This document shows, in pieces, positions 6,384 to 51,899 of a stretch of DNA of 52,577 nucleotides. How positions within the stretch are numbered: the first letter of the stretch is position 1; each line of letters begins with the position of its first letter. Origin of the DNA: Thraustochytrium aureum (lineage: Eukaryota). The translations under genes were made by a program, and so were the position numbers. The notes below the pieces were generated by a model that saw only the letters and a program-made list of their open reading frames with translations, ran no database searches and was not told where the DNA came from. The DNA lies in assembly GCA_012862495.1 (NCBI GenBank), contig BLSG01000137.1:208586-261162 (forward strand), in the 5' to 3' direction.

Positions 6384-9300
6384 TCACCTCGGCGAATGCA
6401 CAAACCGGCCAGAGCCACTGCCCTTCCGGGGCTTCACTGGTCTCGTTGCGCCAGATCTCAAGTCCTCCAGCGCAGACCGTTCCTGAGTTGCACCTTGCCA
6501 GATCCCGCGCGGTGCACGCCCCGACCCGGCCCCCAAAGTGGCGACAAGAGGAAAGGCACGCCCCGATCCGCCCTGAGCGGCCTTGCTTGAGCCGCTGCGG
6601 TCGAGAGGGATGTGCTTTGACTTGGAACTGCGTTGCGAGCCACCGAAGTCGACCTGCCCGCCTGCTCCTGGCAGACCGAGGATTGTGGTGGCCTGCTGCA
6701 TTTTGACTGGCACCTTCCCCATGATGGCGAGCTGGCCAAGATCGCCTTTCCCTGGCCACTGCTGCTGCTGCTGATGATGATGCTGCTGCTGGCTTTGCGC
6801 CTGCTGCATTTGGAATTGCGGGGCAACGGGGATCGCATTCGTGCCAGGCGGTCCTATGCCGATCGCGCTTTGCGAGTACGACACAAGAGTCTCAGGAGCA
6901 AACGTAAGCTCAGCTCGCTCGCGCTCCTCAGGCGTTACCTCCTTGCCGTCCACAAACTTGAGCGTCTGCAGCGCGTGGATGAGTGTCGGGCGGTACAGCT
7001 GCTTGCGCGCAACGGGGTTGTTCCCCACCGTCAGCTCGAGCAGGAACGGCACGGATGCTAGCTTTTCAAGCGTGGCGAGATCAGAGATGCGGTTGTGCTG
7101 CAAATACAGCGAGTGCAGCTTGACAAGCCCCCCGAGATAGCCCAGTGTGCGGATCGAGTTGCCCTCGAGCCGAAGCGCGCGCAGGTTGACCAGGCTCTTG
7201 AGCACGCCGTGCGCGTTCTCGAGCGAGCGAATCTTGTTCTTGTCCATGACCAGCTCGCGCAGCTCGCACAGGCTCAAGGCCCTCGAACGACGTAATTTCA
7301 TTCGCCTGCACAAATAGAACCTTGAGCGACGGCAGAGCGGCCAGGTTGATCGCCGCAAGGTCGCAGATCCTGTTGGCGGCAAGCTGCAAGACCTGGATGC
7401 CGGCAAGGCCCTGGAGGCGCAGCTGTGCGATTCGGTTCTGGTTGAGCTTGAGAACCTCCAGCTCGGGAAGGTCGCACAGGCCGTCAATGTTGGTGAGCAA
7501 GTTGCGGTCCAAATTGAGCTCTCGCAAGCACTTGAAGTGATCGCTCGTGATTGTCCCCGCCTGCACGTTGCGGAGCTTGCAGCCGGAGAGGTCAAGCTCA
7601 TGGATGCTGCTGTACAGCTTGTGGCCGATCTTGTCCTCCAAAAAGTCGGCCGAAAGCCTGCCCTGGAACCTGTCCCGAGCATCTTGCTGCTCAGCTTGGT
7701 CCACGCCGACGCCGTCCAGCACCTTGAGCCGCTTGAGAAAATAGACCGTGTAGAGCCTGTACGTGGAGTCTGAGCAGATGGGGTTCCCGAGCAGGTCTGC
7801 AATGATGAGCTTGGGTTGGTCACGGAGCCGCTGCACCTCTTTCAGGACCGCGATGCGGTTGTTCCCGACGTAGAGCTCCATGAGCGACTGCAGCGGCTCG
7901 ATCCCGGACAGGCTCTCGATCGCGTTGTCCTCTAGAGACAGCTGCGTGAGGTTTCCTAGCCGCTCGAGCCCCGATATGCTGGTCAGCTTGTTGCGGCCCA
8001 GATCGAGCTTGCGCAGTTGCGTGCACTGAGACAGCCCCTCCACAGAGAGGATGCGGTTGCCTTCCAAGCAGAGCTCCTCCAGAGAGCCGCACTGGCCCAG
8101 GCCTTCGATACGCGAAATCTCGTTCTCCGCCAGGGCTAGGCGGCGCAACGCCGTGAGCGATGAAAGGTTCTCCAGGGCGCGAATGCGAGCGCGGGAAATG
8201 TCCAGCTCAACGATTGCATCCCACGCCGCTGGGGCTGCGACAGCAGACTGGCGTGAAACCTCTGGTCCAAATTTGCAGTGCTCCAGAATAGTGTTTGGGG
8301 TCAAACTGAGACGCTGCAGCTCCTTGGCGCCTCTCCGATCCGCTGCTGTTACCGCGCAGCCGTCCAGAACCCGAACTGCGGGCAGCTTTGAGAGCACCTC
8401 GCTGACGTAAAAATCAGCCTCGCAAAGTGCGTTGTTGCGCAGGTTTAGCTCCACGAGCCCCGCCTGGGAGCGCTCGAGCGTCTCAATGTCTTCGAGCCTG
8501 TACAGCAGGTTGTTGTTGAGCTCGAGCGCGCGCAGCTGCCCCAGCGACTCGATCCCCGCGATGCGCTTGATCATGTTGAAGCCCAGCTCGAGACGCTCGA
8601 GCTGGCCAAGCATCCCGAGCCCGCCCATATGGTTGATCTCGTTAAACGACGCGACAAGGGTGCGGAGGTTGGAGCATCGGTCCAGGCCCACGAGTTCACG
8701 AATGGCGTTGCCGTGCAAGTTGAGGTACACGATGTCCTCTGCGCGCGGGACGCGAGTCCAGTTGAGAATTGTCTGTTCGGAGAGGATCGCGAGCTTGGTG
8801 CGCGGTTGCACCCCCGAGTCGAGGTTGACGATCGCCATGCTTTCCTCGTCGCTCTCCGCGCTCGCCGACTCGAGCACCCCAAGCTCTCGCACGTACGTCG
8901 CAAGCGGACGCAGCAAGGGCCCAAGGTCGTCGAGCTCTTGCTGCGAGAGCGGCTCGCCTCCGGCCATGAGAGGCTCGCGCGCAATCTGCTCGACACTGGG
9001 CTCGACTGGGACCCGGTTCAGAGAACCTGCAACACCGCGAAGCTGGTTTTGCAGGTGCTCGTTTGCCGACACGTACTCAAATTCAACAACGTACTCGGGA
9101 AGCACCAGCGCGCGGTCGAAAACAAACCAGTCCTCGCAGCCAATGCCCGCAATACCTTGCGACTCCCGGAAGACGCCGTGGTATCCCACATAGTCGCGCG
9201 GGACAATCGCGCCAATGCCCGGCGCGGCTTGCTCTGCCCAAGAGCTGTCTTCCTCGTCGAGGCACCACGCCTCGCTGTCCGCTGCCTGAAGTGCTTCGCG

Positions 9301-11041
9301 CTCCTTCAAGAGCATCCCAGAATCATACTTGGGCTTTCGCCGCCTTGACGCCAATGCACCCGAGTCTGCAGAGCCACCGGTTTTCACCGCGCGCCCGACT
9401 GTGGCGCCTCCTGAGAGCATCTCAGAGACCGCCCGGGTCGAGTCGACCTGCACGCGGGCTTCGGACACGGTGTCGGAGCGAGGAAGGCACACTCTGGTGA
9501 TGATCGCTTTCGCGCGGCTCGGCAGAGCACCAGCGCGAGCCTTTGCAGAAAGCTCTACGCCTGTCATGTGGCTGTGCAAGGGGATCGCCGCGTGCCTGGC
9601 GTCAAACTTGGCTTGGTAATCGCTCGCCTTGAGGAAGCCATTCTGCACAATCTCGAGGTAGCTTTGGTTACCGACGTAAAGCAAGTTTGCCGTTCGCCCG
9701 TCGAGGGAGCCGTCTTCATCGGCGCTCGACTCGGACTGTAGAATGGATGTCGCTCGCTCGTCGAAACGCGTTTTGAGGAAACCTGTTGTGGACGCGCAGG
9801 ACGCGCGTCACCCGAAGGGCGGCAACGCCCGCCCCCTGATAGCCTGCTGCCGCGACGCGAGAGTTGAATGCGCGCACAGCGGCGTCATACCAGGCGTCTC
9901 CAGGCTTGCCCTCGGCGAGGCGCACGTTTCCGCCGGTCTCGAGCTCGAGTACGAGGTGCTGGATGGCTTCCTCTGATATCGCTCGGGCCTCCGCCTGCAT
10001 CGCCCTCGATCGCCTTTGCACGTCGTTGACTAGCGCGAGGCGCTGCGAAATACACTTGCGCAGCGCGTCACGCTTTGTTTGCAGCTTGTCCGCGCCGACT
10101 TTGGGGCCAGCTGGCGTGGCGTGAGCGAGCTGGAGGGCGCTTTCTTCGATCTCTCGCTCGACTTCCTTGAGCTGCCGCACGAGAACATTTGTAGTCATGC
10201 TAATTTTGCTGATTACAGCGTGCTGGCATTCGACCGCCTTGCGCACCACATTGGTGCAGTTGCGCTTGAGCGTTTTGATTCGCATGTTGTAGTACATTCG
10301 CTTCTTCAGGAATGTCGCCTCTGTGAGCACCTTGGCCTCCTCGTCCACGGCGATGGTGTCTAGGACGCGCACTTGCAAGTGGCACAATGCAAACGTTTGG
10401 TAGTTGCTCAGAGAGCAGACCGGGTTGGACCCAAAGTGCGGGTCTTGCAAGTAGAGGGTCCCCAGCTTTGGCAGCCGCGAGATGTTGAGCAGCTCCTTGA
10501 AAGAGCCGATCAAGTTGTCGCTAACGTTGAGTTCCGCAAGCTGCGTCATCGAGTCCAGCGCGTTGCCGATCTCGCGAATACAGTTTCGCGCCACCCAGAG
10601 CTCGGCCAGTTGCGGGAGCGCGCCGAGCCCGCTGAGGCTTTGGAGCTTGTTGTCGCAAAGCCAGAGCTTTTCGAGTTTCTCAAGGCCCTCGAGATGCTCG
10701 ATTCGCTGAATCTGGTTCGAGCTCAGGTTGAGCTGGCGGAGGTCCGCGCAGGATGCGAGCTCCTCGTCGATTTTCACCAAGGTGCAGGCGCAGACCCAGA
10801 GGCGGCGCAGCTGTGGACACGCCCCGATTCCAGCCAGCGAGGTCACGCGCTTCTGATCGTTGATGCACAGCTCGCGAAGCGCAGGAAACCGCGCGACAAA
10901 GCGCAGCGTCCGCGGCGTCACGAGTTGGAACAGCTCGATATCCTGGACCGTCTCGGCGTCCTCCTCCTGCTCAATACCATTAAACTCGCAGATTTCAACA
11001 AAGGGGTCCGTGAACGTCCGCACGCCATCCTCCTCCTCCAT
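6384..11041 (-). CDS. LRRC9: Leucine-rich repeat protein 9 (SDS22-like LRRs, central ART/PARP-like domain, further LRRs); frameshifts near 9779 and 7270
   Basis: Many LxxLxLxxNxI repeats with LRR caps (NPVC..Y..F..L.VLD) and the LRRC9-typical ATFLKKRMYYNMRIKTLKR. Three ORFs join after correcting homopolymer indels. Confidence 0.9.
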
Positions 11042-12391
11042 GGCTGCCGCGGGCGCCGGTGCGCCGCTGGAACGCTCACGCCTCGCCCAGCATGCAGCAC
11101 CTAGCCACCTCGGCGTGCCTTGTCACGGCGACGCGCGGCGCGTCTGCAGGCCGCCCACGCCACCCCCGCAATAGCGAAGCCGCACAGCGCCGCAGGCGCA
11201 CGGAGACCGACTGCGCCCTGCCCGCAGCAAGCCCCTCTGCCGCCCCGCCGCCTTGGTCCTCTGCCGCCCGGCCCGCGCGCGACGGCGTTCTTGTCCGGTG
11301 GCTCCTCCACATTCTCAACGGCCATTTCGACGCCACTCCTGTAGGGGGGGGTAAGGTGCGCTAAATGTGCGAAACGCGGTGTGCGCCACCGCCCGGACAA
11401 AGTGCGCGCGGACGAGCGCCGACTCAGCGGAACGCGCCCGTGCATACGCGCCAACATGCGCTACAGGGTGTGTACTGGCGTGCGAGGAATTGTGCGATGC
11501 GCGCGGAAGAGGCGCCGCCGCGAGGGCGACGCAGATGGGGTTGGAGGCTTGTGCGCGAGCGAGGACGCGGCGCGGGGTTGGCGCGAAGCAAAGACGCTGT
11601 GGGGGTTGGCGCTCGGTGAAGCGGCCGGGGCNNNNNNNNNNNNNNNNNNNNNNNNNNNNNNNNNNNNNNNNNNNNNNNNNNNNNNNNNNNNNNNNNNNNN
11701 NNNNNNNNNNNNNNNNNNNNNNNNNNNNNNNNNNNNNNNNNNNNNNNNNNNNNNNNNNNNNNNNNNNNNNNNNNNNNNNNNNNNNNNNNNNNNNNNNNNN
11801 NNNNNNNNNNNNNNNNNNNNNNNNNNNNNNNNNNNNNNNNNNNNNNNNNNNNNNNNNNNNNNNNNNNNNNNNNNNNNNNNNNNNNNNNNNNNNNNNNNNN
11901 NNNNNNNNNNNNNNNNNNNNNNNNNNNNNNNNNNNNNNNNNNNNNNNNNNNNNNNNNNNNNNNNNNNNNNNNNNNNNNNNNNNNNNNNNNNNNNNNNNNN
12001 NNNNNNNNNNNNNNNNNNNNNNNNNNNNNNNNNNNNNNNNNNNNNNNNNNNNNNNNNNNNNNNNNNNNNNNNNNNNNNNNNNNNNNNNNNNNNNNNNNNN
12101 NNNNNNNNNNNNNNNNNNNNNNNNNNNNNNNNNNNNNNNNNNNNNNNNNNNNNNNNNNNNNNNNNNNNNNNNNNNNNNNNNNNNNNNNNNNNNNNNNNNN
12201 NNNNNNNNNNNNNNNNNNNNNNNNNNNNNNNNNNNNNNNNNNNNNNNNNNNNNNNNNNNNNNNNNNNNNNNATACAAGTCATTGGAATGTTGTTGAGGCT
12301 GCCAAGGACGCTGCCGAGTCCCGCTAGAGCATCTTTTCCGTAGGTAACCCAGCAACACCACGGATGGATGACATCCCAAAATACCCAAGGC

Positions 12392-25392: not shown

Positions 25393-27500
25393 CTACAAAA
25401 CAACGTTGACGCCCCGATACCCCGGCAATCGCGCGTCTGCGCCACCAGCGCTGTCAGCGGTGTCGCCGGCGTCCCGACTTCCAAAGCTGCGACTGCCGCC
25501 GAGTTGCTCAAGAGAGGCCCGGTGAAAAATCGGCGAGAGCGAGCCGGGGCCGTGCTCTGGCGATCCGCCCCCCGCAGACGCCACGGACGGGCGGCGGGAG
25601 CCGCGGCGGCGGCCACCGAATACAGGCTTCAAGTACGTTTCGTCAAAGTGGCGCCACGCGGCTGACAGGGTGCCGTACTGGAACCCGTCCCCGTCCTCCG
25701 ACTGGTTCGGGTCAAAGCTCGCCAATGCGCTTGCGTCCGTGTTCGCCCTCAAATGAATCGTGTCAGGGGTCATCCCGAGGTGCAAGAGGCTTTCCGGGGA
25801 AGACATCGCTCCATAACCGAAAGCAGCCTTGCGCCGCTGCTCGCCGTGAAAGCTGAGCGGGGCCTTTTCATGGGCAACAACGCCCAGGCCTTGCGCGGCC
25901 CAAAACAGCGAGGAGCCCTGGACCACATAAGTAAAGAGGATGACAGAGATTGTCGTGGTCACCATCATCCCCTCGCGGTTCAGCACGGGGGCGTGCAGCG
26001 CCAAGGCAAAAGCCACAGCGCCTCGGAGCCCGGCAAGCGACATGAAGACCTGGGCACGCCATCCGATGTACGACGGGACAACCCTGTAGGCCGGCGGTGC
26101 GAGGTGGCCGCTGGTTCCGTCCCTGTACAGCGGGCGAGACTCGGCCTCGCTCTCCCGGCTCGCAGAACCTCGAAAGCAAGCAGACACCCCAGCACAAGCC
26201 AGGAACGAGATGGCGCGGCAGGGGGGCCACCGGGACCAGGAGGCGCGATGCGACGTCACCCACTTGGTCAGGTTGATAATGTTGCTTGAGAAGACAATAT
26301 GCACGAAGCGCGAGGCCAGGCACAGAACGAGCAAGACGACGATTAGGGTACCGTTCCACTCGCCCTCGGAGACGGAAAACACCGAGGCACCAAGGAAGAC
26401 AAACACAAAGGTCTCGGCAAGGTGCCCGATGGTCTTGAACCAGCTCGCTGTGGCCAGCTGGCTCATGTGCGAGATGTTGTAGAACGAGTAGTGGGTCATC
26501 GTGGCGCCGCAAAAGAAGAGCGCCACGACCGGGGAAAGCCCCACCTGGCGCGGCAACAAGTAGCTCAGATACGCAAACAGCAGCAGGATGGCCTGCTCGC
26601 GGCCAGGGCTGTTTTGCAGATGCACGGCCCGCCGCAGTGTGTACGCGCTTAGGAGCCCCATGGAAACTCCCGCCACCATGGACAGCGCGGTCACCGCAAC
26701 GAACCGGTAGCACAGCATTGCCACGTCACCTTCCTTCATCGCGTTCATGTCCCCGCGGGCCATCAGCACGGCGTGGTAGACGCGAAACTCGTTGTACAGC
26801 ACGACGGCGACAGCGCTGTTCAAAACGCTCTCCCCGAAAAGGAACGCATAGATCTGCCTGTCCACGTCAGCCGGGAGCATGCCGAGAACCGCGCCAGGGT
26901 CGACGGCGGAGAGCAGCGCCCCCAGGATCAAGCAGTCTACGAGGGGCATAAATACGCCACCGGGGTGGTTGTCGTGTTCAAAGTCAAGGAGCAGCCCGTC
27001 CCCGTCCGGCTTCCAGTCCTTGTTCGATGTGAACCGTCCTATGATCCCGGTCTGGAACGCCCAGTGGACCCCGACCCCGATCGCGACCGTGGAAAAGATG
27101 GTGCCAAGCAGCGAAAAGCACAAAATCCCGGAAAGGTTTCGAAAGAACGACTTGTTCTTGATCGAGAAGGCGTTGCTGAAGATGATGGCCGGCAGCAGAA
27201 AGTCAAAAAACACCCCGGAGAATCCGTACAGGATTGTCTCTGTCAGGTCTTCGTACTTGAACGCCCACGAGAGGGCGCCCAGGCACACCCCGATCGCGAT
27301 CGCCACAATCTGCTCAGGGAGGAAGCTCAACACGCCCAGCCGCTTGCGCCAGTACATGGCCACCAAGCAGAGCAGATTCGCGCCTGTCAGCATGACCATC
27401 TCCACGTCGGCGGCGACCCAGAGGCCGAACCCGCGATGCCGTACGGTAGCCCGAGCACCGTCAGCTCTGGCACGCCGCCCGTTGGCGCCGCCGTCGCCAT
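25393..27500 (-). CDS. Na+/H+ exchanger, CPA1 (NHE/NHX) family; likely start at 27500 with a frameshift near 27431
   Basis: FFDFLLPAIIF, FFRNLSGIL..LGT, LSAVDP, LFGESVLN, ETFVFVFLG, AGLRGAVAFALA. Confidence 0.93.
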
Positions 27501-27728
27501 CCTCGCAGCCGCCGTCCTCGCAGCCGCCCGTCGCTGCGCCTCTGCTTGCAGCGCCTCTGCTCGCAGCGCAGCGCAAGCGAGAGAGAAGATTGGGACGACC
27601 TAACCCATGACCTAACAGACCTCCATCCACTTGACGATCTATCAATCAATCAATCAATCCCCGGTGGCATGCACCGATGTCAACTGGCGGTTCGGCGTCT
27701 TGGGCCCGTCGTCGTCTCTTTTCTTGGA

Positions 27729-29219
27729 TTACTTTTCTACTTTACTTCCTGCAGCTGCCCTGCTCCTTGACACGGAGGACGCGACGCTTTGGGCGACAGC
27801 GTCGAGAGGCTCGTCGCCAGGAATGAAGAGCCGCTGGTCTTCGAGTTCAAAGAGCCTCGGCAGCAGCTCCCGCTCGGCCTCGAGTCTCGCGGTCCTGATA
27901 CGTGCTTCGACCTCGGCCTTGCTTCCCAAAAAGCAAGGGATCACTGTGCCCTTGACTTGTGCTTCGCGGCGCAGTGCAACGCGAGTCTCGTTGACGCAGT
28001 ACTTGGAGTCGAAAAAGTTGACCAGGTTGACGAGGATCACGATAGCAGGGGCTTCCTGGAGTACGCGCTTCATCTCTGCCGTGGGGTTGCTTGAGACCTC
28101 GAGGTTTCTGGCGTCCAAGAACGGCGCAAGCGCGTTCTGTTCGAGATCACGGCGAATCTTTTCTGCGTCATACTTGTTGTCGCCACGGTGCACGATGAAC
28201 ACGTCGTACTGGCGATCGCCAAGCCCCGATGAGGTGCTTGCTATAACTGCCATCGAGTTGCTCGCTGGTTCTGTTCCATGCTTGAGCGCGGCAGCAGCTC
28301 CAGAGAGCCTGCTCGCTTGTCGTCTCTTCCACGTCACGATACCAAAGGCCGACAGGAGGGCGAGAGTGACACCAACGAGACTGCCTCCAACTATGGTTTC
28401 AGCACTGAGGCCTTCAGAGCCTTGACTGCCGCGCAGGTTGCTGGCGTCCTCCTTGGTTGCGCTCGTTGGCGCCCTTGTTCTTTGGTCAGACACCGGAGCA
28501 GCGTTCCGCGNNNNNNNNNNNNNNNNNNNNNNNNNNNNNNNNNNNNNNNNNNNNNNNNNNNNNNNNNNNNNNNNNNNNNNNNNNNNNNNNNNNNAGGCGC
28601 TCGGCGAGGCGCTCGGCGAGGCGCTCGGCGCGAACGACGGCGCAGAGCTTGGCATTCGCGAAGGAGAAACGCTAGGCGAGGTGCTAGTAGGGGCGGTGCT
28701 AGGCGCGGTGCTCGGCGCCTGCGTCGGCGCACGCGTCGGCGAACCCGACGGCAACTTGGTCGGTTTCGAGGTTGGCCGGGGCACGCCAAGCGCTTGCCCG
28801 CAATCCGAGCAGTCGGTGCCCAGCTTGCAAACTGTGGATTTGGCAGTTGGCCTGCCATCGTCGCAGAGCCCAAAGCGGACAATTTCACACCCAACAGCGC
28901 CATCGTCCTCGATCCGTCCGTCGCAAGTATCATAGCAAAGGTCAGCCGTCGGGCTCGTAGGATCTGGGCACGTGTTGCAGGTCACTGGGCACTGCCGCCG
29001 AACGCGTGTCCCGAAGTCAGAGTCCTCGGCGCAGTACTCTGCCAGCTCCGAACAGGTACTTGCCCACTCTGATATGTACCAGGACGGGCATGCCCTGCCG
29101 ATGACTATAGTCGGGTTTCGGTTGTCACCAACGTGGCCTTCCCACCCTGGGCACCACTGCGAGGCAGCTCCGACAGCATACAGCGCGACGCCGGCGGCCA
29201 CCAGCCTCGCATTGCCCAT
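27729..29219 (-). CDS. Single-pass receptor: signal peptide, ShKT-like domain, Cys-rich module, PT/PS stalk, TM helix, TIR domain
   Basis: Signal MGNARLVAAGVALYAVGAAS. ShKT-like C..C..C..RRQCPVTCNTC. Module CDDG..CKLGTDCSDCG. Stalk PTRAPTQAPSTAPS. TM IVGGSLVGVTLALLSAFGIVTW-KRR. TIR YDVFIVHRG..PFLD..AIVILV..FFDSKYCVNE..VIPCF. Confidence 0.88.
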   Translation of the reverse strand: MGNARLVAAGVALYAVGAASQWCPGWEGHVGDNRNPTIVIGRACPSWYISEWASTCSELAEYCAEDSDFGTRVRRQCPVTCNTCPDPTSPTADLCYDTCDGRIEDDGAVGCEIVRFGLCDDGRPTAKSTVCKLGTDCSDCGQALGVPRPTSKPTKLPSGSPTRAPTQAPSTAPSTAPTSTSPSVSPSRMPSSAPSFAPSASPSASPSAXXXXXXXXXXXXXXXXXXXXXXXXXXXXXRNAAPVSDQRTRAPTSATKEDASNLRGSQGSEGLSAETIVGGSLVGVTLALLSAFGIVTWKRRQASRLSGAAAALKHGTEPASNSMAVIASTSSGLGDRQYDVFIVHRGDNKYDAEKIRRDLEQNALAPFLDARNLEVSSNPTAEMKRVLQEAPAIVILVNLVNFFDSKYCVNETRVALRREAQVKGTVIPCFLGSKAEVEARIRTARLEAERELLPRLFELEDQRLFIPGDEPLDAVAQSVASSVSRSRAAAGSKVEK

Positions 29220-31340: not shown

Positions 31341-32861
31341 ATGGCGACGATTGCATTGGTTGATGCAAGTGCGTCGGCGACCTCCATTCGCTGGCAGTCC
31401 ACGAACGATCGACAGGGCGCCGCGCGCGCTCGACACGCGCGTAACAGCAGCGAGCACAGCCAAGTGCGCGCGGGAAGAACTGAGCAGAGCACAACCCGGC
31501 TCAGCTGGAAGCGCGCAAGGGAACTCGAGTTAGCGCGAGAATTTGCGCCTTGCAGAGATGGATAAAGTCACCGCGACAGCGATTTGCAGCGGCAAGTCGG
31601 ATCAGGCGGGCTGCAACGCGGAGCAGTTTTGCTTGTGGGACCCGCGGGCGGGGACTTGCAAACTGTCGTTTTGGTTCCAGTACTGCGCACTTGACAACGG
31701 CAAGCCAACCACGTGCGATTACGGAAAGTGCGAGTTCAAGACGGTCCACGGCTTGCCAGACTCGTGCATAGTCGCCCAACGCCCAGCCGGCTGGACGTGC
31801 GAGTACAGCGACTACGGAACCAATAGCGGGTGCGACTGCGACTGCGGCATCTGGGATCCAGGCTGCGCAACAGAACCGGACCAGCAAGACACCCCGGTCA
31901 AGTGCGGGCCGTGGCGTTAGGAGAGGCTGTTAAGGGCACGTACTGCGCGTTTCCGTCCAACACGTGCGTGACGCGGAGCCCCACAGGTTCGCCATCCAAA
32001 GGGCCAACCATGTCTCCGACCAAGGCGCCGAGCATGGGTCCAACAACAGGCTCTCCGACGCGAACCCCGACGCGACAGCCTACCGAGTCCCCCGAGAAAG
32101 CACCGAGCGCCTCGCCAACTTGGGCGAAGCCGTCCCAAGCACCTAGCCGCTCACCTAGCCGCGCCCCGTCGGTGAGCAGGGCTCCAACGAGTGCGCCATC
32201 CGGCTCGCCAGCTCAGCTCCTCAGCGCCGGGGCTGCGCGAGACGAGAGCGCCGGGCTTTCAACCACCCAAAGGGGATTCTATGCCGCAGGTGTTTTGGCC
32301 ATCATTCTTGCCGTTGTACTTGTCGTCGCTTGGAGGCGTCGCGGTCACCGGCAACAAGAGCCAGGAATACCAAGAAAACCCGTCGTCATTCTGGCTAGCA
32401 ACAATCAGAAAAAGCTGGCCACCAGTATCCAAGGCGGACTGCGATCGAAACGAATCGAGTGCGAGATTGTGCCTTCCCTGAACGGTGAAGCCAGCGTCGC
32501 CGGCCAGCCCTCGAGTATCCACAGCGCTCATGTTGTTATAGTTCTTCTCTCCTCCGTGCAGGAGCTGGCAAACTATCCAGCCTTTCGAACTGCTCTTTGC
32601 GAGCTGCGCGACCGTGTCACTGACGATGCGGAAAGTGCCAATGTCCGAGTGTTTCCGATGTATCTGACGCAGTTGCATGCCTTGAGGGCCGAGGAAAGAG
32701 CGTCGTCGCACGAAAATTCTGTAAGCTGGCTGTTCAGCGAGGTCAGCGGCTGGGAGGGAGCGCCGCTCCTCGCATTCAACCTTGACCAGCTTGTCGTCGA
32801 GGCTGTGGTACAGTACAACAAGACGGGCACATTCCCGCTGATCCAAGAAATCCACCTATAA
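31341..32861 (+). CDS. Single-pass receptor: Cys-rich ectodomain, PT/PS stalk, TM helix, divergent TIR-like domain (possible intron 31369-31555; frameshift near 31908)
   Basis: Cys-rich region including WTCEYSDYGTNSGCDCDCGIWDPGC. Stalk SPTGSPSKGPTMSPTKAPS. TM FYAAGVLAIILAVVLVVAW-RRR. Cytoplasmic alpha/beta pattern PVVILAS..LATSIQGGL..HVVIVLLSS..RVFPMYL..WLFSEV. Start and signal peptide uncertain. Confidence 0.72.
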
Positions 32862-33118: not shown

Positions 33119-33873
33119 AAACNCACCGTGCCAGTCCACGAACAGCTCCCTTGTCATCNNNNNNNNNNNNNNNNNNNNNNNNNNNNNNNNNNNNNNNNNN
33201 NNNNNNNNNNNNNNNNNNNNNNNNNNNNNNNNNNNNNNNNNNNNNNNNNNNNNNNNNNNNNNNNNNNNNNNNNNNAAACGTCACGCTGGCGCCTCCCCGA
33301 ACGAAGGCTGCTCCCAGCAGCGCACATCATACCCTTGACTCCCTCCCTGTAGCCCCCCATTTCAATGCTTTGACCCAAACTAGCTCCACCTCGGGTTCTC
33401 TTGTGGGTTCCCTTTCGCGGTGTGTCGTATTCGTAGGAACGCACGCGCACCCCCTCGGCGGCCTGCTGTCCACTCGCGAGATGCTCCTGGGCGTCACTCG
33501 ACACGCGCTGGCGGAGACGACGATGATGTTGATGATGATGAATGAGGAGTGCTCGCTCGCCCTGATGATGCTGATGCCGATGATGCTGATGGAGATGATG
33601 CTGATGGAGAAGACGACGAGGAAGTGATGCCGCTGGACGCGCGGCAGACTCCGAACAGGTGACGACGACGACCGACCTCGGACTGGTCGACCGCCAGACC
33701 CTGAACGTGGCGCAGCACGACGAGCAAGTCCAAGCTCGTGTTGGACGGCAGTGGCGGCGCCTGGGCTCCTCGCGCGAGCTGCGCTTTGCACAGGAGTGCC
33801 TCGGGGCCCGAGTCGCCGAGGCCGAGCGCCGAGCAGGGTCGCGCACAAGCCGTCGCTTCGGCGTGCGGCGGGC

Positions 33874-34866
33874 ATGTTGGGCGGCGTAGGCTTCGACCTG
33901 GTGGTTACCGCGAATGGGCTCATGTACGCGCTGTCGATGGTGGCCGTGTTTGTGATGGGAATGCTCTGGGAGTCGTCCGGGTGGGCGGCGAGGAGCAAGG
34001 CGGTCGGGCTGCGGTACGCGAGCGCGCTTCTCGGAGGCAGGGGGAGCAGGTCGCCGGCGCGGTGCCGACTCGTGGGCGCCGGGCCGGGCGACCCGGCACT
34101 GCTGACCCTGGCGGCGAAGAGGGCGCTCGAGGAGGCCGACATCGTGATCGCCGATCGGCTTGTGCCAGCAGAAACGCTCGCGCTCGTCAAAGGCCGCGTG
34201 GTGCTCTCGCGCAAGTACAAGGGGTGCGCGAACAAGGCGCAGGACGAGCTGCACGAGTGGACGCTAGCCGCGCTACGCGAAGGGCTCGACGTGGTCCGCC
34301 TCAAGGGCGGCGACCCTTTCTTGTACGGCCGTGGCGCGGAGGAGATCGAGGTCTTCCGCAAGGCCGGGTTTCCTGTAGAGGTCGTGCCCGGCATAAGCAG
34401 CTGCCTCTCGGCGCCGCTGGCGGCCGGCATCGCCGTGACCACGCGTGGCGTTGCCGACCAGCTGCTCATTGCGACCGGGCACGGCATGAACGACACCGTC
34501 CCGCGCGATGTTGCGCCGTACTACGCTGGAAGGACCACTGTGTACCTGATGTCCGTGAGCCGCATGGAGGCGCTCATGAGCCGCCTTCAAGAGCCTCACG
34601 TTGGCTTCCCCAGCAGCACCCCGGTTGCCGTCGTTGAGAAGGCATCAACGAGCAAGCAGCGCGTCGTCCGCGGGACTGTCGGCACCATCACCTCCATTTG
34701 CGAGGCGCTCGGCGTGCAGTCGCCGGCGACGATCGTGGTTGGCCGCGCAGCTAGTGCGCTCGTCGACCCGTCGCTCGGCCCAGATGCCACCTCAGACTAC
34801 CAACCTGGGCAGGGCTCTGTAAAGTTCGCGGCCGTGCCGACGGTGCCGTCCCTTGCTCGCGTCTGA
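33874..34866 (+). CDS. cobA: Uroporphyrinogen-III C-methyltransferase (SUMT; CobA/MET1/UPM1 type) with hydrophobic N-terminal extension
   Basis: LVGAGPGDPALLTL..ADIVIADRLV, VVRLKGGDPFLYGRGAEE, VVPGISS, TGHG, TVYLM, PATIVVG. Confidence 0.93.
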   Translation: MLGGVGFDLVVTANGLMYALSMVAVFVMGMLWESSGWAARSKAVGLRYASALLGGRGSRSPARCRLVGAGPGDPALLTLAAKRALEEADIVIADRLVPAETLALVKGRVVLSRKYKGCANKAQDELHEWTLAALREGLDVVRLKGGDPFLYGRGAEEIEVFRKAGFPVEVVPGISSCLSAPLAAGIAVTTRGVADQLLIATGHGMNDTVPRDVAPYYAGRTTVYLMSVSRMEALMSRLQEPHVGFPSSTPVAVVEKASTSKQRVVRGTVGTITSICEALGVQSPATIVVGRAASALVDPSLGPDATSDYQPGQGSVKFAAVPTVPSLARV

Positions 34867-35484: not shown

Positions 35485-37925
35485 ATGCGGCCGACGCAAG
35501 TCGCGCTCTGCGCCGCGGTGCTCCTGGCTTGCGCAAGTGTGGCGATGGGGTGCTGCGAAAACAAGTGCAGCGGACACGGGCAGTGCATGAACGGGTGCAC
35601 ATGCACGTGCCACGCGCAGTGGACTGGGGCCGACTGCTCGTTGAGACAATGCCCCTCCGGGCTCCAATGGGTTGGACCTGCTAGTGCAACCGACACTGTC
35701 CACTCAACCATGGCAGTGTGCTCGAACGTCGGCAGGTGCGACTCCTCTACAGGGATTTGCGTTTGCCAAGACGGCTTTGAAGGTCTGGCGTGCGAGCGGC
35801 TCAAGTGCCCGCTGAACTGCAACAACCGCGGGCGCTGCGTCTCGCTGAGCGACGCAGCTGAAGAAAAGGACGACCTCAACTTTTNNNNNNNNNNNNNNNN
35901 NNNNNNNNNNNNNNNNNNNNNNNNNNNNNNNNNNNNNNNNNNNNNNNNNNNNNNNNNNNNNNNNNNNNNNNNNNNNNNNNNNNNNNNNNNNNNNNNNNNN
36001 NNNNNNNNNNNNNNNNNNNNNNNNNNNNNNNNNNNNNNNNNNNNNNNNNNNNNNNNNNNNNNNNNNNNNNNAAGGACGACCTCAACTTTTTCCGCAAGGT
36101 CTCCTACTCGGGCTGGGACGCCAAGCGCATTTATGGGTGCAAGTGCGAGCCGGGGTGGGCTGGGTACGACTGCACGCGGCGCGAGTGCCCGCGCGGCGAC
36201 GACCCTCTCACGACTGGACAAGTTGACGAGATCCAAGTTCTAGATTGCACCTGCGCAGACACGTGCTCTGGCTCGTTTTACTTGTCCTTCCGTGGTGAGG
36301 CTACGCAAGCAATCTCGTTCAACGCAAACGAGGTTGCTGTCAAAGAAGCACTTGAACATCTCCACACGATTCGCGGTGTCAGCGTTGCTTTTACTGACGG
36401 CACCGCGGTGTGCGACAACGACGGCGTCTCGACGGCGATCACGTTCACGCACAATCCAGGCGACGTCCCAACGATTCAGGTGATTCAAAACGACCTCGAT
36501 TCTTCTGGAGGAACCAAGACCATTGCAATTGTGCACAGCGGCCAGACCTCGGCGAAAAGCGTCGTTTCAGTGACAGGAACCAAGGAGAATGAAATCTGCA
36601 GCGGCAGAGGAGTATGCGACTTTACGTCTGGGCTTTGCACCTGCTACACCGCCTTTGGGTCGAGTGACGGAGTCGGGGGGAAGGCACCTTTGGGGACTGC
36701 GGCTACCACTCTGGGGCCGCAAGTGCCTGCCCCGGCTCAACATCCTGCAGCGGGCATGGCACATGCAGCGGCGCAACTGCATATGTCTGCACCTGCGACG
36801 ACGGCTGGACTGGGCGCGACTGCGCGACGCGAACCTGTCCGACCGGCGTCGCGTGGTTTGCCGAGGCCGGGACAACGCTTCCCGCCCTTGTCGACGTCAC
36901 CAATAGCGCCACGTCGGTGACCACCCATGGCGACGTGCGCTCAGTCCTCAGCCGCGGTGACACGCTTGTCATAAACGACCAAGTTCTCACTGTGTCCTCG
37001 GATACTTCCGATACCTTCGATGCCACAACGATCCCGCTCGCCTCGGCGTACACTGGTGAGACCGTTGTCTATGCGGAAGCGTATGCGCGGCCAGAGCAAG
37101 CCCATCACCTCGTCGAGTGCTCCAACAGGGGGCATTGTGACTACCAGCATGGGAACTTGCACGTGCATGGTCGGCTTCACAGGGTCGGCGTGCCAAAAGA
37201 CCAGATGCCCTGCTGCGTGCAGCGGGCGAGGGACCTGCATGTCTCTTGCGAGCCTGGCGGAGAAAACCGAGGTTAACGGCGACGCCACCGACTTTACGTA
37301 CGGGCGAAATCCATCGGTGATTGGAACATGGGATCACGACAAAGTCTTTGGTTGCCGCTGCGACAAGTCACTTCTGCAAGGTGGGCACTATGATTACTGG
37401 GGCCACGACTGTTCGCTTTTGGCCTGCCCGACAGGAGACAACCCTTCGACCGAGAACGGATACGACGAGGTTCAGAACATCACCTGCAGTGCCACTAGTG
37501 GCTCTTTCACGGTGTCGTTCCGGCAAGAGACCTCAGCCAGCATTGCCTTTGACGCGACGGCTGCACAAGTCAAGCAAGCCTTGGCTGCAATGTCAACGAT
37601 CGGCTCGGCCACGGTCACCTTCGATTCTGGCTCCGCAGCTTGCAGCAGCGGCGGCGTTGTCATCTCCGTGACCTTTACGAGCAGGCCTGGCGACTTGCCG
37701 CTCATGACAACGCAGACCTCGCTCTCGGGCGGGTCGGCCGACGCGCTCGTTGCCGAGGCGGTCAAGGGCACCAAGGAAAATGCAGAGTGCTCGCAGCATG
37801 GCCTCTGCGACCGCAGCACTGGCGCATGCAAGTGCTTTTCCGGCTATGTCTCATCAAATGGCCAAGGAGGTTACGGCACCCGCGGAGACTGTGGTGCTCG
37901 AGACGCCCTCTACACTGGGTCTTAG
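35485..37925 (+). CDS. Secreted tenascin-type EGF-repeat protein, Sig1/Ocm1 mastigoneme-like (frameshifts near 36683 and 37145; false gap)
   Basis: Signal peptide, then CSGHGQC..WTGADCSLRQCP, CSNVGRCD..G.C.C..GFEGLACER, WD..YGCKC..GYDC..CPRGDDP, EICSGRGVCD. The module occurs twice. Confidence 0.85.
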
Positions 37926-48594: not shown

Positions 48595-49283
48595 CTGATG
48601 AAATGCAGCAGCACCCACCAACCTTGCGCCTTCAAGTTGTCCCAAAACTCGTGGCCAGCTACTTTCAGCGCCCACAGCAGTAAGAGCAGGGCCCTGTTCG
48701 CTCAAAGCTCGAGGGCCGCCTGGTCTTCGGGTGCCACGTTGCCTTGAGCCACAAGCCTCGCCCGTCTCGTCCTCCTCCAGCGTGCACCCTGACCGAGGAG
48801 AAGCAAGCCCACCAGCAAGCGAAAGAGGCGAGCTCTCTGCAGGCAAGCCAAAGGCCGGCGGGCGTTGCGCGAGCGCAGCCTTCGACCGCACGAGCGAAGG
48901 CAGCACGTTGATCTGCGAGTGTCCTGGTCCCCGCAGGACACAACGAGCAGCAGACCCTCATCGGCAGCAGCAGCAGCAGCGGCGGCAGCGGCAGCGGCAG
49001 CAGGCAGAGGAGGCGGAGGAGGCAGTAGCGGCGGCAGCACCAGGAGCGACAGCGCTGCCTGCCGGAGCAGGCGCGAAAAGGCGGCGGGCGGCGGTGTGGT
49101 GGTCGCCTCGTCGCCTGCGCTTTGCTCGCTCGCGCTTACTTATTTGTCGTTGCAGGTTGGCTGTTGCTCGCGGCGGAGCTGGGCGGGCGGGGTCGAGCGC
49201 GGCGCGAAGAGGTCCAAGGGAAGGCGGCGGAGGCGGAGGCGGGGGCGGGGCTGCGTTTCTGAAAAGAAACGCTCGGCGGCAGG

Positions 49284-51899
49284 ATGGGGGCCAGCGGATC
49301 GCGCGACAAGATGATTCCGGCTGAGGTGGCGTCCAAGTTCACGGCCGCCGAGCTGGACATGCTGCGCAAGTCGTTCAAGGACCTAGCGCAGCGGTCTCCA
49401 GGCAACACGATTGACAAGGAGACCTTTCTCAAGTTTTTCCCGCTGCCCGGGCTGCACGGCGAGCGGCTGTTCGAGGTGTTTGACCACAAGCACACTGGCG
49501 TCTTGGACCTGGAGGAGTTTGTGACTGGCCTTGCCGTGTCGGTGCGCGGCTCGTTCGACGAAAAGGTCAAGCTCATCTTTAACATTTACGATATCGACAA
49601 CAACCAGCACGTGAGCAAAGAGGAGCTCCGCACAATGCTCCACCAGGTCCCTCGGCAAGCCTTGTACGTGCTGAGCGCCAAGGTAGCCTCCGATGCCGTG
49701 CGCGGGCAGCTCATCGCCGAGACCGGCGCGCCGGCGCCAGGCAGTGCGGCCGCAGCAGCGGGTGCCAGCCGCACGCCGCGCCCCAAAGATGCCGCGCCGA
49801 GCAAGGTGTCAATAGAAGTGGTCAACCTGCTTGTTGAAGACGCGTTCAACTCGTTCGACCTGAACAAGGACGCAAAACTGAGTCCGAGCCAGTTTCGGCA
49901 GTGGGTCAAAAACACTCCAGAAGTGCTCGAGTTTCTCCAGTCGGTGTTCCCGCTGCACGAGACCCCGCCAGCGCCGCGCTCGCCGAGCAGTGCCGCGGAG
50001 CCGCTCTCCCCGAAGATCATATCGTCTGCGTCGTTCGCTGGCCAAACGAGCGATGAGGTGTATAGCATGACCTCTTGCCCATCTCCGCCCGCTTCGCCGC
50101 ATCGCCAGCGCTCGCGCTCGCTGCTGGACCGTGTGCAGAGAGGAGGGCGGTCCGGCTCGACGGACAGCACCGGCGGCAGCGGCCTCGGCTCTGCGCCTGG
50201 GAGCCCTCGAGCCCGGTTCTGGGCCAGGTCCCGCACCTCCTCTGCGGGCTCCGAGCTGAGTGAGAAGAGCGCCAGCAGCGCGCCAGCGGCGCAGAGCGCA
50301 GGCTCTGCGAGCGCGGCCGGAGCAGGGCTGAGCGCACCCAGCAGCGAGTCCGGAGAGCTCCCGAGGCCGCCGTCTCGGGCCTCGTGCGACAGTGGGATCA
50401 GCACGCCCGTGCGTGGGCAGGGCTCTGACGCTGCCACGGTGGCCGCGGTTGACCCAGCTGCTGTGGAGATGAGCGGTGTGCTGTACAAGGTGGGGCGGCG
50501 CACGCGGAGCTCGCTTGCGCGGTTTTTCCTGCTGCGAGGCCAAGTGCTGTACTACTACCACCCGGGCAAGATGGAGCAGCCTGCGGGGATCATCTTTCTG
50601 CAAGGTTGCTTTGTGGCGGCGTACGGTTCGGAGAGCGCAGCGACGCAAGACGCGGTCAAGTCGCTCCGGTCGCAGTTCTCGGAGGCCATAATTCGGACCA
50701 AAAAGGGCCTCACAGCAGACCAAGAGGTGTCGCGTGCCGCGTCGGGGCGGTCGCCCGTGTCGCAGCGCTTTGGGTTTGAGCTGATCACGAGCCAGGGCGG
50801 GGAGCGCGACTCGCGCGTACTGTTCGCGAAGAGCGAGGCGGAGCGACAGGCGTGGATAAGCGCCATCCGGCGAGCGAGCAACGTGGTCCCGTTTGAGAGC
50901 AAGTACCACCGGCTGGAGATGGTCGGTCGCGGCAAGTTTGCGACGGTGTTCAAGTGCGAGATGCTCGGCGAAAACGAGGGCAAGGCGGAGGCAGAGCGGC
51001 AGTACTATGCGGTCAAGGTGATTGACAAGGGCGAGCTGAACGAGGGGGAGCGGGATCTTTTGCGCACCGAGATCGCGGTGCTCAAGCTTGTCAATCACCC
51101 GAACATCATCAACATGGACGATGTGTTTGAGTCCCTCAACCACATGTACATAGTGCTCGAGTGGGTGGAGGGCGGCGAGTTGTTCGACCGAATCGTGGGG
51201 CGCGCGAGGCTGCAGGAGATCGAGGCGTTCCCGCTCGTGAAGCAGCTCGCGGAGGCGGTCTGCTACCTGCACATGCTGGGGGTGGCCCACCGGGACATCA
51301 AGCCGGAGAACATCCTGTGCAGTGGGCGGAAGGAGGACCCTGTGTGGGAGAGCACGCTCAAAATCTGCGACTTTGGCCTGAGCAAGCTCATAAGCCCTCA
51401 GGGAGTCATGCATCTCGCTTGCGGGACGCTATCCTACGTCGCCCCGGAGGTCCTCTCCAGCAAGGGTTACGGCAAGGCCGCCGACATTTGGAACATCGGC
51501 GTGATCTTGTACCTCGTGCGTCGCGGCAAGCTTCCCTTTGACGGCGAGACCAAAGACGAGGTCATCTTCAACACCATCTACAGCGAGCTCGACATTGAGC
51601 ACGACCCGATCTTCAGCAAGGCTTCGGCAGACCACGTCGACCTTTTGGAGGGCCTCCTTAACAAGGATCCTCTGGAGCGGCTCACAGCGCAGCAGGTCCT
51701 GGACCACCCGTGGATGGTCCGGATGGAGGTTGCGTGGCGAGCCATGCACCCGGACAAGCTCACATTTCTGGATGCGGGCAGCTATGCGACCATCTCCTCG
51801 CCGGCTCAGAGCGCTTCGTCGCTCGAAGACCAAACGTTGCTCGGTCAGGTGCCTTTGCCAACGAGTGCTGGTGCGGCTGTCAGCTCGGCGCAAGGGTAG
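49284..51899 (+). CDS. Ca2+-dependent kinase with EF-hands, PH domain and CAMK-group kinase domain (CDPK7-like)
   Basis: MGASGS myristoylation motif. EF-hands DHKHTGVLDLEE, DIDNNQHVSKEE, DLNKDAKLSPSQ. PH domain MSGVLYKVG..RFFLL..LYYY..ERQAWISAI. Kinase GRGKFATV, AVKVIDK, HRDIKPEN, DFG, APE. Confidence 0.92.
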   Translation: MGASGSRDKMIPAEVASKFTAAELDMLRKSFKDLAQRSPGNTIDKETFLKFFPLPGLHGERLFEVFDHKHTGVLDLEEFVTGLAVSVRGSFDEKVKLIFNIYDIDNNQHVSKEELRTMLHQVPRQALYVLSAKVASDAVRGQLIAETGAPAPGSAAAAAGASRTPRPKDAAPSKVSIEVVNLLVEDAFNSFDLNKDAKLSPSQFRQWVKNTPEVLEFLQSVFPLHETPPAPRSPSSAAEPLSPKIISSASFAGQTSDEVYSMTSCPSPPASPHRQRSRSLLDRVQRGGRSGSTDSTGGSGLGSAPGSPRARFWARSRTSSAGSELSEKSASSAPAAQSAGSASAAGAGLSAPSSESGELPRPPSRASCDSGISTPVRGQGSDAATVAAVDPAAVEMSGVLYKVGRRTRSSLARFFLLRGQVLYYYHPGKMEQPAGIIFLQGCFVAAYGSESAATQDAVKSLRSQFSEAIIRTKKGLTADQEVSRAASGRSPVSQRFGFELITSQGGERDSRVLFAKSEAERQAWISAIRRASNVVPFESKYHRLEMVGRGKFATVFKCEMLGENEGKAEAERQYYAVKVIDKGELNEGERDLLRTEIAVLKLVNHPNIINMDDVFESLNHMYIVLEWVEGGELFDRIVGRARLQEIEAFPLVKQLAEAVCYLHMLGVAHRDIKPENILCSGRKEDPVWESTLKICDFGLSKLISPQGVMHLACGTLSYVAPEVLSSKGYGKAADIWNIGVILYLVRRGKLPFDGETKDEVIFNTIYSELDIEHDPIFSKASADHVDLLEGLLNKDPLERLTAQQVLDHPWMVRMEVAWRAMHPDKLTFLDAGSYATISSPAQSASSLEDQTLLGQVPLPTSAGAAVSSAQG

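What the first reader, a model, noticed from the sequence alone, without database searches (positions are those of the whole stretch)
27760..28212. Receptor 1 TIR domain retains the catalytic glutamate motif: candidate ligand-gated NADase
Seen: YDVFIVHRG (beta A), PFLD (beta B) and FFDSKYCVNET, with the Glu codon at 27987-27989. Established: S-x-W/Y-C-x-x-E carries the catalytic Glu of NAD+-cleaving TIRs (SARM1, plant TNL, bacterial TIR), whereas TLR TIRs act as scaffolds. YDVFxxHRG also resembles plant-type TIRs. Inference: ectodomain clustering could switch on NAD+ cleavage or cyclic ADP-ribose signalling directly from a membrane receptor.
Basis: partly seen in the sequence, partly recalled or inferred. 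Interest (0 to 1): 0.78.

Follow-up and report, generated by a model that had tools for sequence, protein, structure and literature searches.

The report
Protist surface receptor with enzyme-type TIR
A gene of what is likely a thraustochytrid-like protist encodes a predicted cell-surface receptor whose inner TIR domain keeps the glutamate that NAD+-cutting immune enzymes use, so it may signal by cutting NAD+; the glutamate is common in such domains, activity is untested, and a receptor of similar layout is already predicted in an alga.

Summary
A 496-codon ORF (29219-27729) encodes a signal-like start, a Cys-rich ectodomain (ShK-like, below cut-off), a Pro/Ser/Thr stalk, one membrane helix and a real TIR domain (Pfam TIR_2 E 5.7e-12; model pLDDT 89; best folds are plant TIRs). 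Glu411 (27989-27987) aligns with the catalytic Glu of plant TIRs, and most pocket residues are kept. The BB-loop Gly needed by AbTir is Ser here. The Glu is not special: 44 of 44 retrieved homologous domains have it. An ectodomain-TM-TIR(Glu) receptor is already predicted in Gephyrocapsa huxleyi, and this scan noted three similar layouts in other protist genomes (unchecked). The host is likely a labyrinthulomycete. No close relative was found. A second receptor with a degenerate TIR-like tail lies head-to-head 2.3 kb away. Verdict: new member of a known kind; clustering-gated NAD+ cleavage about 40% likely; interest 0.35.

The parts
27729..29219 (-). Receptor 1 ORF, 496 codons counting the N gap, apparently intronless: signal-like start, Cys-rich ectodomain, stalk, TM helix, TIR
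   Evidence: one run-X1 contig joins the two sides of the N gap in frame
29157..29219 (-). Moderately hydrophobic N-terminus, likely signal peptide (no dedicated predictor run)
   Evidence: 12-residue hydropathy peak 2.11 at residues 6-17
28968..29090 (-). Six-Cys module with ShK-like spacing (C44, C56, C63, C77, C81, C84); weak match only
   Evidence: Pfam ShK 16.4 bits, E 0.014, below the cut-off of 20.9, seen only when the module is scanned alone; Cys positions
28800..28937 (-). Second Cys-rich module, seven Cys (C95-C140), no family assigned
   Evidence: no Pfam, NCBIfam or PDB match of note; no homologue in a word-based search
28407..28781 (-). Pro/Ser/Thr-rich stalk (54% P/S/T over 96 read residues) containing the 84-N gap at 28511-28594
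   Evidence: Pfam PT repeat below cut-off
28338..28394 (-). Single predicted transmembrane helix (residues 276-294), followed by a basic WKRR stretch
   Evidence: 19-residue hydropathy 2.07; sequence
27753..28211 (-). TIR domain (about residues 337-489)
   Evidence: Pfam; AlphaFold2 model pLDDT 88.7, pTM 0.84; Foldseek; Atlas 0.96 to TIR clusters
27987..27989 (-). Glu411, in the register of the catalytic Glu (RUN1 E100, AbTir E208), on helix alphaC
27999..28001 (-). Tyr407 at the conserved Trp position (AbTir W204, RUN1 W96)
   Evidence: Trp in 25 and Tyr in 12 of 44 homologous domains
28092..28094 (-). Ser376 in place of the conserved BB-loop Gly (AbTir G174)
   Evidence: Gly in 39 of 44 homologous domains; alignment without gaps
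31558..32861 (+). Receptor 2, head-to-head: Cys-rich part, stalk, TM (about 32274-32330), degenerate TIR-like tail (32370-32858); frame break near 31914 in the window; no signal peptide in frame

Best explanation
This is a predicted single-pass surface receptor of a likely labyrinthulomycete protist, whose cytosolic TIR domain keeps the catalytic glutamate and would likely cleave NAD+ once several receptors are clustered. Shown: the ORF, the TIR, the Glu register and most pocket residues. Inferred steps: (1) the protein enters the secretory route and sits with the Cys-rich modules outside on an extended stalk; (2) an unknown multivalent surface, such as a microbe, virus or substrate, clusters the ectodomains; (3) clustered TIRs pack head to tail, which completes the two-subunit active site as in plant TIRs, SARM1 and AbTir; (4) NAD+ is turned at a low rate into ADP-ribose or a cyclic isomer that acts as a signal rather than draining the NAD+ pool. 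The aromatic residue at 407 is compatible with a cyclic product.
For: TIR above both Pfam cut-offs. Confident model with the Glu on helix alphaC, residues 74-89 of the domain. Top folds are the plant NADase TIRs L6, RUN1, RPP1, RPS4 (E 2.8e-7 and up, TM 0.6-0.7). By way of the RPV1 alignment and the RUN1 numbering in bioRxiv 10.1101/2021.10.02.462850 (passages), of six RUN1 pocket residues whose mutation impairs NADase, four are identical here (R34=R345, S94=S405, C97=C408, E100=E411) and two are changed to residues common in relatives (F33 to H344, W96 to Y407); D60 is kept as D369. This mapping assumes RPV1 and RUN1 share numbering offsets (recalled as near-identical). Tyr at the W204 position occurs in 2 of 12 cyclising TIRs (bioRxiv 10.1101/2022.05.07.491051, passages). 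The gene looks intact: a run-X1 contig joins 28507 to 28604 in frame, and its contigs show no frame-breaking indel over about 1,390 coding bases against 9 indels over about 2,090 intergenic bases (P about 0.01). Protist TIRs can be active enzymes, and membrane-tethered Dictyostelium TirC is an NADase.
Against: The Glu is the default state (44 of 44 domains; these were found with this query, so the count is biased upward). Base rate of detected activity among Glu-bearing TIRs is low: 25 of 154 overall, 4 of 29 in non-animal unicellular eukaryotes, a lower bound because only three products were measured on isolated domains. TLR2, IL-1R9, IL-1R10, TirB and TirD keep the Glu and showed no activity. 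The BB-loop Gly is Ser376; G174A leaves AbTir with no or very low activity, and G601P closes SARM1. The plant AE-interface His (RUN1 H45) is Lys here, and the Leu after the Glu is Thr (0 of 44 relatives among the listed residues). The model was built from an alignment of TIRs, so it is not independent of the sequence match, and the side-chain direction of the Glu was not measured. No ligand or oligomer is known.
Confidence: 0.4

Rival explanations
1. The receptor is real but its TIR works as a scaffold: clustering recruits other TIR proteins, and the Glu is a retained structural or vestigial residue, as in TLR2, IL-1R9/10, TirB and TirD.
For: BB-loop Gly lost. Most Glu-bearing TIRs tested showed no product. 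MAL and MyD88 adaptor TIRs are also among the fold hits. Long branch, 1.58 changes per column.
Against: At a median of 28% identity to relatives the pocket residues R345, D369, S405, C408, E411 and an aromatic at 407 are all kept, whereas MAL has Gln at the Glu position. No adaptor partner can be looked for, since no genome is held.
Confidence: 0.35
2. The TIR is an enzyme, but is gated otherwise than by simple ligand clustering: either held off by the membrane tether and switched on by release, as proposed for TirC, or controlled by receptor 2 as a degenerate-TIR partner in a head-to-head pair.
For: Truncated TirC without its membrane helix lysed amoebae while the full-length protein was tolerated (bioRxiv 10.64898/2026.04.30.722052, abstract and passages). 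Receptor 2 lies divergently 2,338 bases away with the same overall layout, and its tail is TIR-like (Atlas 0.92; 7.0 bits against 0 of 1,000 shuffles) but lacks the His/Phe-Arg, Asp and Ser-x-Trp-Cys pocket residues.
Against: Adjacency is the only link between the two genes. Their TIR regions show no direct pairwise similarity. Receptor 2 is frame-broken in the window and has no in-frame signal peptide. Its tail still places a Glu in the catalytic column, so it is not a clean pseudo-enzyme.
Confidence: 0.18
3. The ectodomain and the TM-TIR half are not one gene (mis-join across the N gap), or the locus is a decaying pseudogene.
For: An 84-N gap lies inside a repetitive stalk. The bridge rests on one contig at depth 3.5 from one sample that may be the window's source or a close strain. 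GC3 is 0.67 against 0.80-0.84 in four housekeeping genes of the window.
Against: The contig joins both sides in frame with 179 and 56 bases on either side. Stalk-type sequence lies on both sides of the gap. No stop or frameshift in receptor 1; of two listed coding differences one is silent and one lies in the stalk.
Confidence: 0.07

Closest known systems
Gephyrocapsa huxleyi cogent1101_i1 and related ectodomain-TM-TIR proteins (PMC12489294, section 20 and passages read)
   Same: Unicellular eukaryote; extracellular region, one TM helix, intracellular plant-like TIR with the conserved Glu (E836); proposed there as receptor that makes signalling molecules; activity not tested in the section read.
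   Different: Haptophyte, much longer protein, leucine-binding and EGF-like ectodomain, expression induced on viral infection. Here: likely labyrinthulomycete, ShK-like and unnamed Cys modules, no expression data. Sequence homology between the two was not tested.
Plant NLR TIR NADases (RUN1, RPV1, L6, RPP1, SNC1)
   Same: Best sequence and fold matches; Glu register and most pocket residues.
   Different: No NB-ARC or LRR; TIR is C-terminal behind a membrane helix; BB-loop Gly and AE-interface His not kept; outside the land-plant TIR clade in the tree of hits.
Toll-like receptors (animal and choanoflagellate; TLR4)
   Same: Signal peptide, ectodomain, one TM helix, C-terminal TIR; TLR4 TIR also has the Glu and made cADPR in E. 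coli.
   Different: No LRR ectodomain, the defining TLR feature; TIR scores and folds closer to plant and bacterial TIRs.
Dictyostelium TirC (bioRxiv 10.64898/2026.04.30.722052)
   Same: Protist TIR with a membrane helix and a catalytic Glu.
   Different: TirC is a CAP12/Pycsar-type TIR with no ectodomain and shown NADase activity; this TIR matches TIR_2/TIR only.
Bacterial TIR NADases (AbTir) and SARM1
   Same: Glu, aromatic at minus four, His-type betaA end as in AbTir; nearest Atlas clusters are bacterial TIR_2 proteins.
   Different: No coiled coil, ARM or SAM oligomerisation domain; AbTir G174 and R178 positions are Ser and Thr.

Membership tests
TIR domain (PF13676, PF01582) | Score above Pfam gathering cut-off | tested here: met
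   46.6 against 28 and 33 against 21.3 bits
TIR domain (PF13676, PF01582) | Parallel beta-sheet with alternating helices, matching solved TIRs | tested here: met
   Model pLDDT 88.7, 56 Foldseek matches at E up to 0.001, listed ones all TIR-containing; model used a TIR alignment
NAD+-cleaving TIRs | Glu on alphaC in the catalytic register | tested here: met
   Glu411 aligns with the Glu of RPV1, SNC1, AtTIR and, by way of P0033, AbTir E208
NAD+-cleaving TIRs | Supporting pocket residues (RUN1 F33, R34, D60, S94, W96, C97) | tested here: met
   R345, D369, S405, C408 identical; H344 and Y407 are common variants
NAD+-cleaving TIRs | BB-loop Gly (AbTir G174) | tested here: not met
   Ser376; Gly in 39 of 44 relatives; G174A nearly inactive in AbTir
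NAD+-cleaving TIRs | Glu side chain points into the pocket | not testable with these tools
   Model coordinates are not returned; the structural aligner was busy
NAD+-cleaving TIRs | Measured NAD+ cleavage on self-association | not testable with these tools
   Needs a bench assay
Toll-like receptors | LRR ectodomain | tested here: not met
   No LRR match in the N-terminal 208 residues
Toll-like receptors | Signal peptide, single TM helix, cytosolic TIR | tested here: met
   Hydropathy only; TIR
Plant TIR-NLRs | NB-ARC and LRR domains | tested here: not met
   Absent from the ORF
Plant TIR-NLRs | TIR within the land-plant clade | tested here: inconclusive
   Outside a 100/98 clade of 21 plant-type domains, in an unresolved 82/84 group with algal and unnamed domains; long branch; only 44 hit domains as context
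SARM1 | ARM and SAM domains | tested here: not met
   No such match
Protist ectodomain-TM-TIR(Glu) receptors as in G. huxleyi | Extracellular region, TM helix, plant-like TIR with Glu | tested here: met
Protist ectodomain-TM-TIR(Glu) receptors as in G. huxleyi | Sequence homology to those proteins; induction on infection | not tested
   Sequences not held; no genome or transcript for this organism
ShK domain (PF01549) | Six-Cys pattern scoring above cut-off | tested here: inconclusive
   Spacing fits; 16.4 bits against 20.9

The most novel reading that the evidence does not exclude
Receptors 1 and 2 are a head-to-head sensor-enzyme pair at the cell surface of a stramenopile: ligand binding to Cys-rich ectodomains switches on a TIR that makes a cyclic ADP-ribose signal directly at the membrane, with the degenerate TIR of receptor 2 as brake or co-receptor. 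This would be paired-NLR logic rebuilt independently from membrane receptors.
Probability: 0.08. Interest if true: 0.78.

Novelty: new member of a known kind. Interest (0 to 1): 0.35.

Why it matters
No intact surface receptor was shown to gate TIR enzymatic activity in the papers read here: TLR4 and the protist TIRs were assayed as isolated domains, and the G. huxleyi receptors are predictions. A small, apparently intronless receptor would be a convenient test case for ligand-gated NAD+ cleavage and would extend receptor-type TIRs to labyrinthulomycetes, whose antiviral and antibacterial sensing is little described. The Glu motif itself, the point of the finding, is ordinary and adds little.

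Tried and rejected
No whole genome is held, so paralogues and partners outside the window could not be sought. Word-based protein searches found no relative of the TIR among 288-2000 aa proteins (0 of 2,835 candidates) nor of the ectodomain (0 of 121); these are weak negatives. HMMER over 1.84 billion representatives gave 30 hits at 21-40% identity; none shows an ectodomain-TM-TIR layout by Pfam. Locus searches found nothing: TIR in metagenome contigs (0 of 210 pattern matches), alignment in viral contigs (0 of 42), neighbouring Na+/H+ exchanger in metagenome contigs (0 of 36); synteny is untested. No RNA holder listed. The single-sequence model of the receptor 2 tail was poor (pLDDT 39.9) and its fold search gave nothing meaningful. 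The VIA-align comparison and the complex prediction (TIR dimer with NAD) were not available; TIR self-association stays open. Literature searches for a TIR receptor in thraustochytrids (none of 20 listed papers, of 155, holds 'TIR domain') and for ShK with TIR (15 listed of 190, all animal TLR papers) found no description; some searches found the precedents cited. Supplementary tables of the bioRxiv preprints could not be seen; those of 10.64898/2026.04.20.719644 include thraustochytrid TIRs and might hold a relative. Rejected: membership of TLRs, TIR-NLRs and SARM1; horizontal transfer from plants or bacteria (tree unresolved); an upstream in-frame ATG, because the extension is hydrophilic; receptor 2 as a clean Glu-less pseudo-enzyme.

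Full report
Observation. The motifs lie on the minus strand in an ORF from the ATG at 29219 to the stop at 27729. YDVFIVHRG is at 28208-28182, PFLD at 28124-28113, FFDSKYCVNET at 28016-27984, and the Glu codon GAG at 27989-27987 is residue 411. The seven-residue motif occurs a second time elsewhere in the six frames, so it is weak alone. The domain is a clear TIR: Pfam TIR_2 E 5.7e-12 and TIR E 6.3e-8, both above cut-off. An AlphaFold2 model built on a 21-sequence TIR alignment has pLDDT 88.7 and puts the Glu on helix alphaC. Its best structural matches are plant TIRs L6, RUN1, SNC1, RPV1, RPS4 and RPP1, with MAL, MyD88, AbTir and SARM1 lower.

Gene anatomy. The N-terminus is moderately hydrophobic, a likely signal peptide. 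Thirteen Cys form two modules: six with ShK-like spacing (Pfam ShK E 0.014, below cut-off) and seven with no family. A stalk with 54% Pro/Ser/Thr follows, then one hydrophobic helix at residues 276-294 and a basic stretch. The stalk holds an 84-N gap. One contig of run X1 joins 28507 to 28604, skipping 96 positions, which keeps the ectodomain and TIR frames together. It is a single contig at depth 3.5, and X1 may be the source sample or a close strain. X1 contigs show no frame-breaking indel in about 1,390 covered coding bases against 9 indels in about 2,090 intergenic bases (lengths taken by hand from the tables; P about 0.01). GC3 is 0.67, lower than 0.80-0.84 in four housekeeping genes.

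Host. The window is eukaryotic, gene-dense and GC-rich. Its katanin p60 falls in a 100/100 clade of 8 of 30 sequences (29 chosen from 120 listed hits) whose named members are Hondaea fermentalgiana and a record labelled Durusdinium trenchii on a 7 kb contig, which I infer is a labyrinthulomycete contaminant. One gene only, so 'likely labyrinthulomycete'.

Relatives. HMMER over 1.84 billion representatives returned 30 proteins at 21-40% identity: land-plant TIR-NLRs, green-algal TIRs, bacterial TIRs and one unnamed TIR-helicase-TIR-NTPase protein. None shows the receptor layout by Pfam. In a tree with their 44 TIR domains the query is a long branch in an unresolved group with algal and unnamed domains, outside the well-supported plant-type clade. 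'Plant-like' is therefore resemblance, not shown descent.

Is it an enzyme? For: mapped through RPV1 to RUN1 numbering (bioRxiv 10.1101/2021.10.02.462850, passages), R34, S94, C97, E100 and D60 are kept as R345, S405, C408, E411 and D369; F33 and W96 are H344 and Y407, both common among relatives. Tyr at the W204 position occurs in 2 of 12 cyclising TIRs (bioRxiv 10.1101/2022.05.07.491051, passages). Against: the BB-loop Gly, present in 39 of 44 relatives, is Ser376; it matches AbTir G174, whose Ala mutant has no or very low activity. The AE-interface His is Lys. The Glu is present in 44 of 44 retrieved domains, a count biased by the search.

What is in print. bioRxiv 10.64898/2026.04.20.719644 (parts 1-4 of 6 read; tables not seen) reports that most eukaryotic TIRs outside TLRs and interleukin receptors keep the Glu; that 25 of 154 Glu-bearing TIRs, and 4 of 29 from non-animal unicellular eukaryotes, gave a product in E. 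coli; that TLR4 TIR makes cADPR; and that TLR2, IL-1R9 and IL-1R10 keep the Glu without activity. PMC12489294 (section 20 and passages) describes G. huxleyi proteins with an extracellular region, a TM helix and an RPS4-like TIR with the Glu, and proposes the same receptor-enzyme role. bioRxiv 10.64898/2026.04.30.722052 (abstract, section 5, passages) shows that membrane-tethered TirC is an NADase and that TirB and TirD, which keep the Glu, are not. PMC6040629 (passages) gives the LRR-TM-TIR definition of TLRs and choanoflagellate examples. PMC9153377 (passages) lists TIR plus transmembrane proteins as a known architecture. No paper on a labyrinthulomycete TIR receptor appeared. The scan's own notes list three Cys-rich, TM, TIR proteins in other protist genomes, not checked here.

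Receptor 2. A second gene starts about 2.3 kb away on the plus strand with the same layout: Cys-rich part, stalk, TM helix, cytosolic tail. It is frame-broken near 31914 in the window, but one X1 contig (depth 2.2) has an extra base there that joins the frames; the neighbouring exchanger gene shows a similar one-base difference in two runs, so these may be assembly errors. The tail is probably a degenerate TIR: Atlas top score 0.92 with TIR clusters, 7.0 bits on a TIR profile against 0 of 1,000 shuffles, but E 0.6 among 493 window ORFs, hhalign probability 6%, no Pfam TIR match and a poor model. It places a Glu in the catalytic column but lacks the other pocket residues. Any partnership with receptor 1 rests on adjacency only.

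Mechanism and verdict. Most likely (0.40) a surface receptor whose clustered TIRs cleave NAD+ to a signal; the rivals are a scaffold TIR with a retained Glu (0.35), an enzyme gated by release or by receptor 2 (0.18), and a mis-join or pseudogene (0.07). It works like a TLR-shaped receptor with a plant- or bacterial-type TIR, but is not a TLR, TIR-NLR or SARM1. It is a new member of a class already predicted in protists, with an unusual ectodomain and no close relative found. Interest 0.35.

Noticed in passing
window 31558-32861 (+): Second receptor-like gene head-to-head with receptor 1; degenerate TIR-like tail; frame break near 31914 absent from one X1 contig; no in-frame signal peptide, so a 5' exon may be missing.
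   Followed up: partly
window 25393-27645 (-): Na+/H+ exchanger gene (Pfam E 2e-52) directly downstream of receptor 1; contigs of X1 and X2 both carry one extra base at 27404, so its 5' end may be mis-framed in the window.
   Followed up: partly
window 49263-51896 (+): Kinase with EF-hands, a PH domain and a C-terminal kinase domain.
   Followed up: no
window 33628-34863 (+): Tetrapyrrole methylase with a hydrophobic N-terminal segment, next to receptor 2.
   Followed up: no
window 7081-11122 (-): Long LRR protein split over adjacent frames; no link to the TIR genes tested.
   Followed up: no
window 35862-36920 (+): EGF-like, teneurin-type repeats in a partly N-masked ORF.
   Followed up: no
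P0005: Best TIR hit is an unnamed 2,120-aa protein with TIR, helicase-like, second TIR and NTPase domains.
   Followed up: no
P0020 and P0031: Two Enallax costatus TIRs share the unusual Val-His-Arg-Gly end of betaA; P0031 also has Ser at the BB-loop Gly position.
   Followed up: partly
P0047: A katanin labelled Durusdinium trenchii groups with Hondaea and the window's gene, suggesting a mislabelled or contaminant contig.
   Followed up: partly
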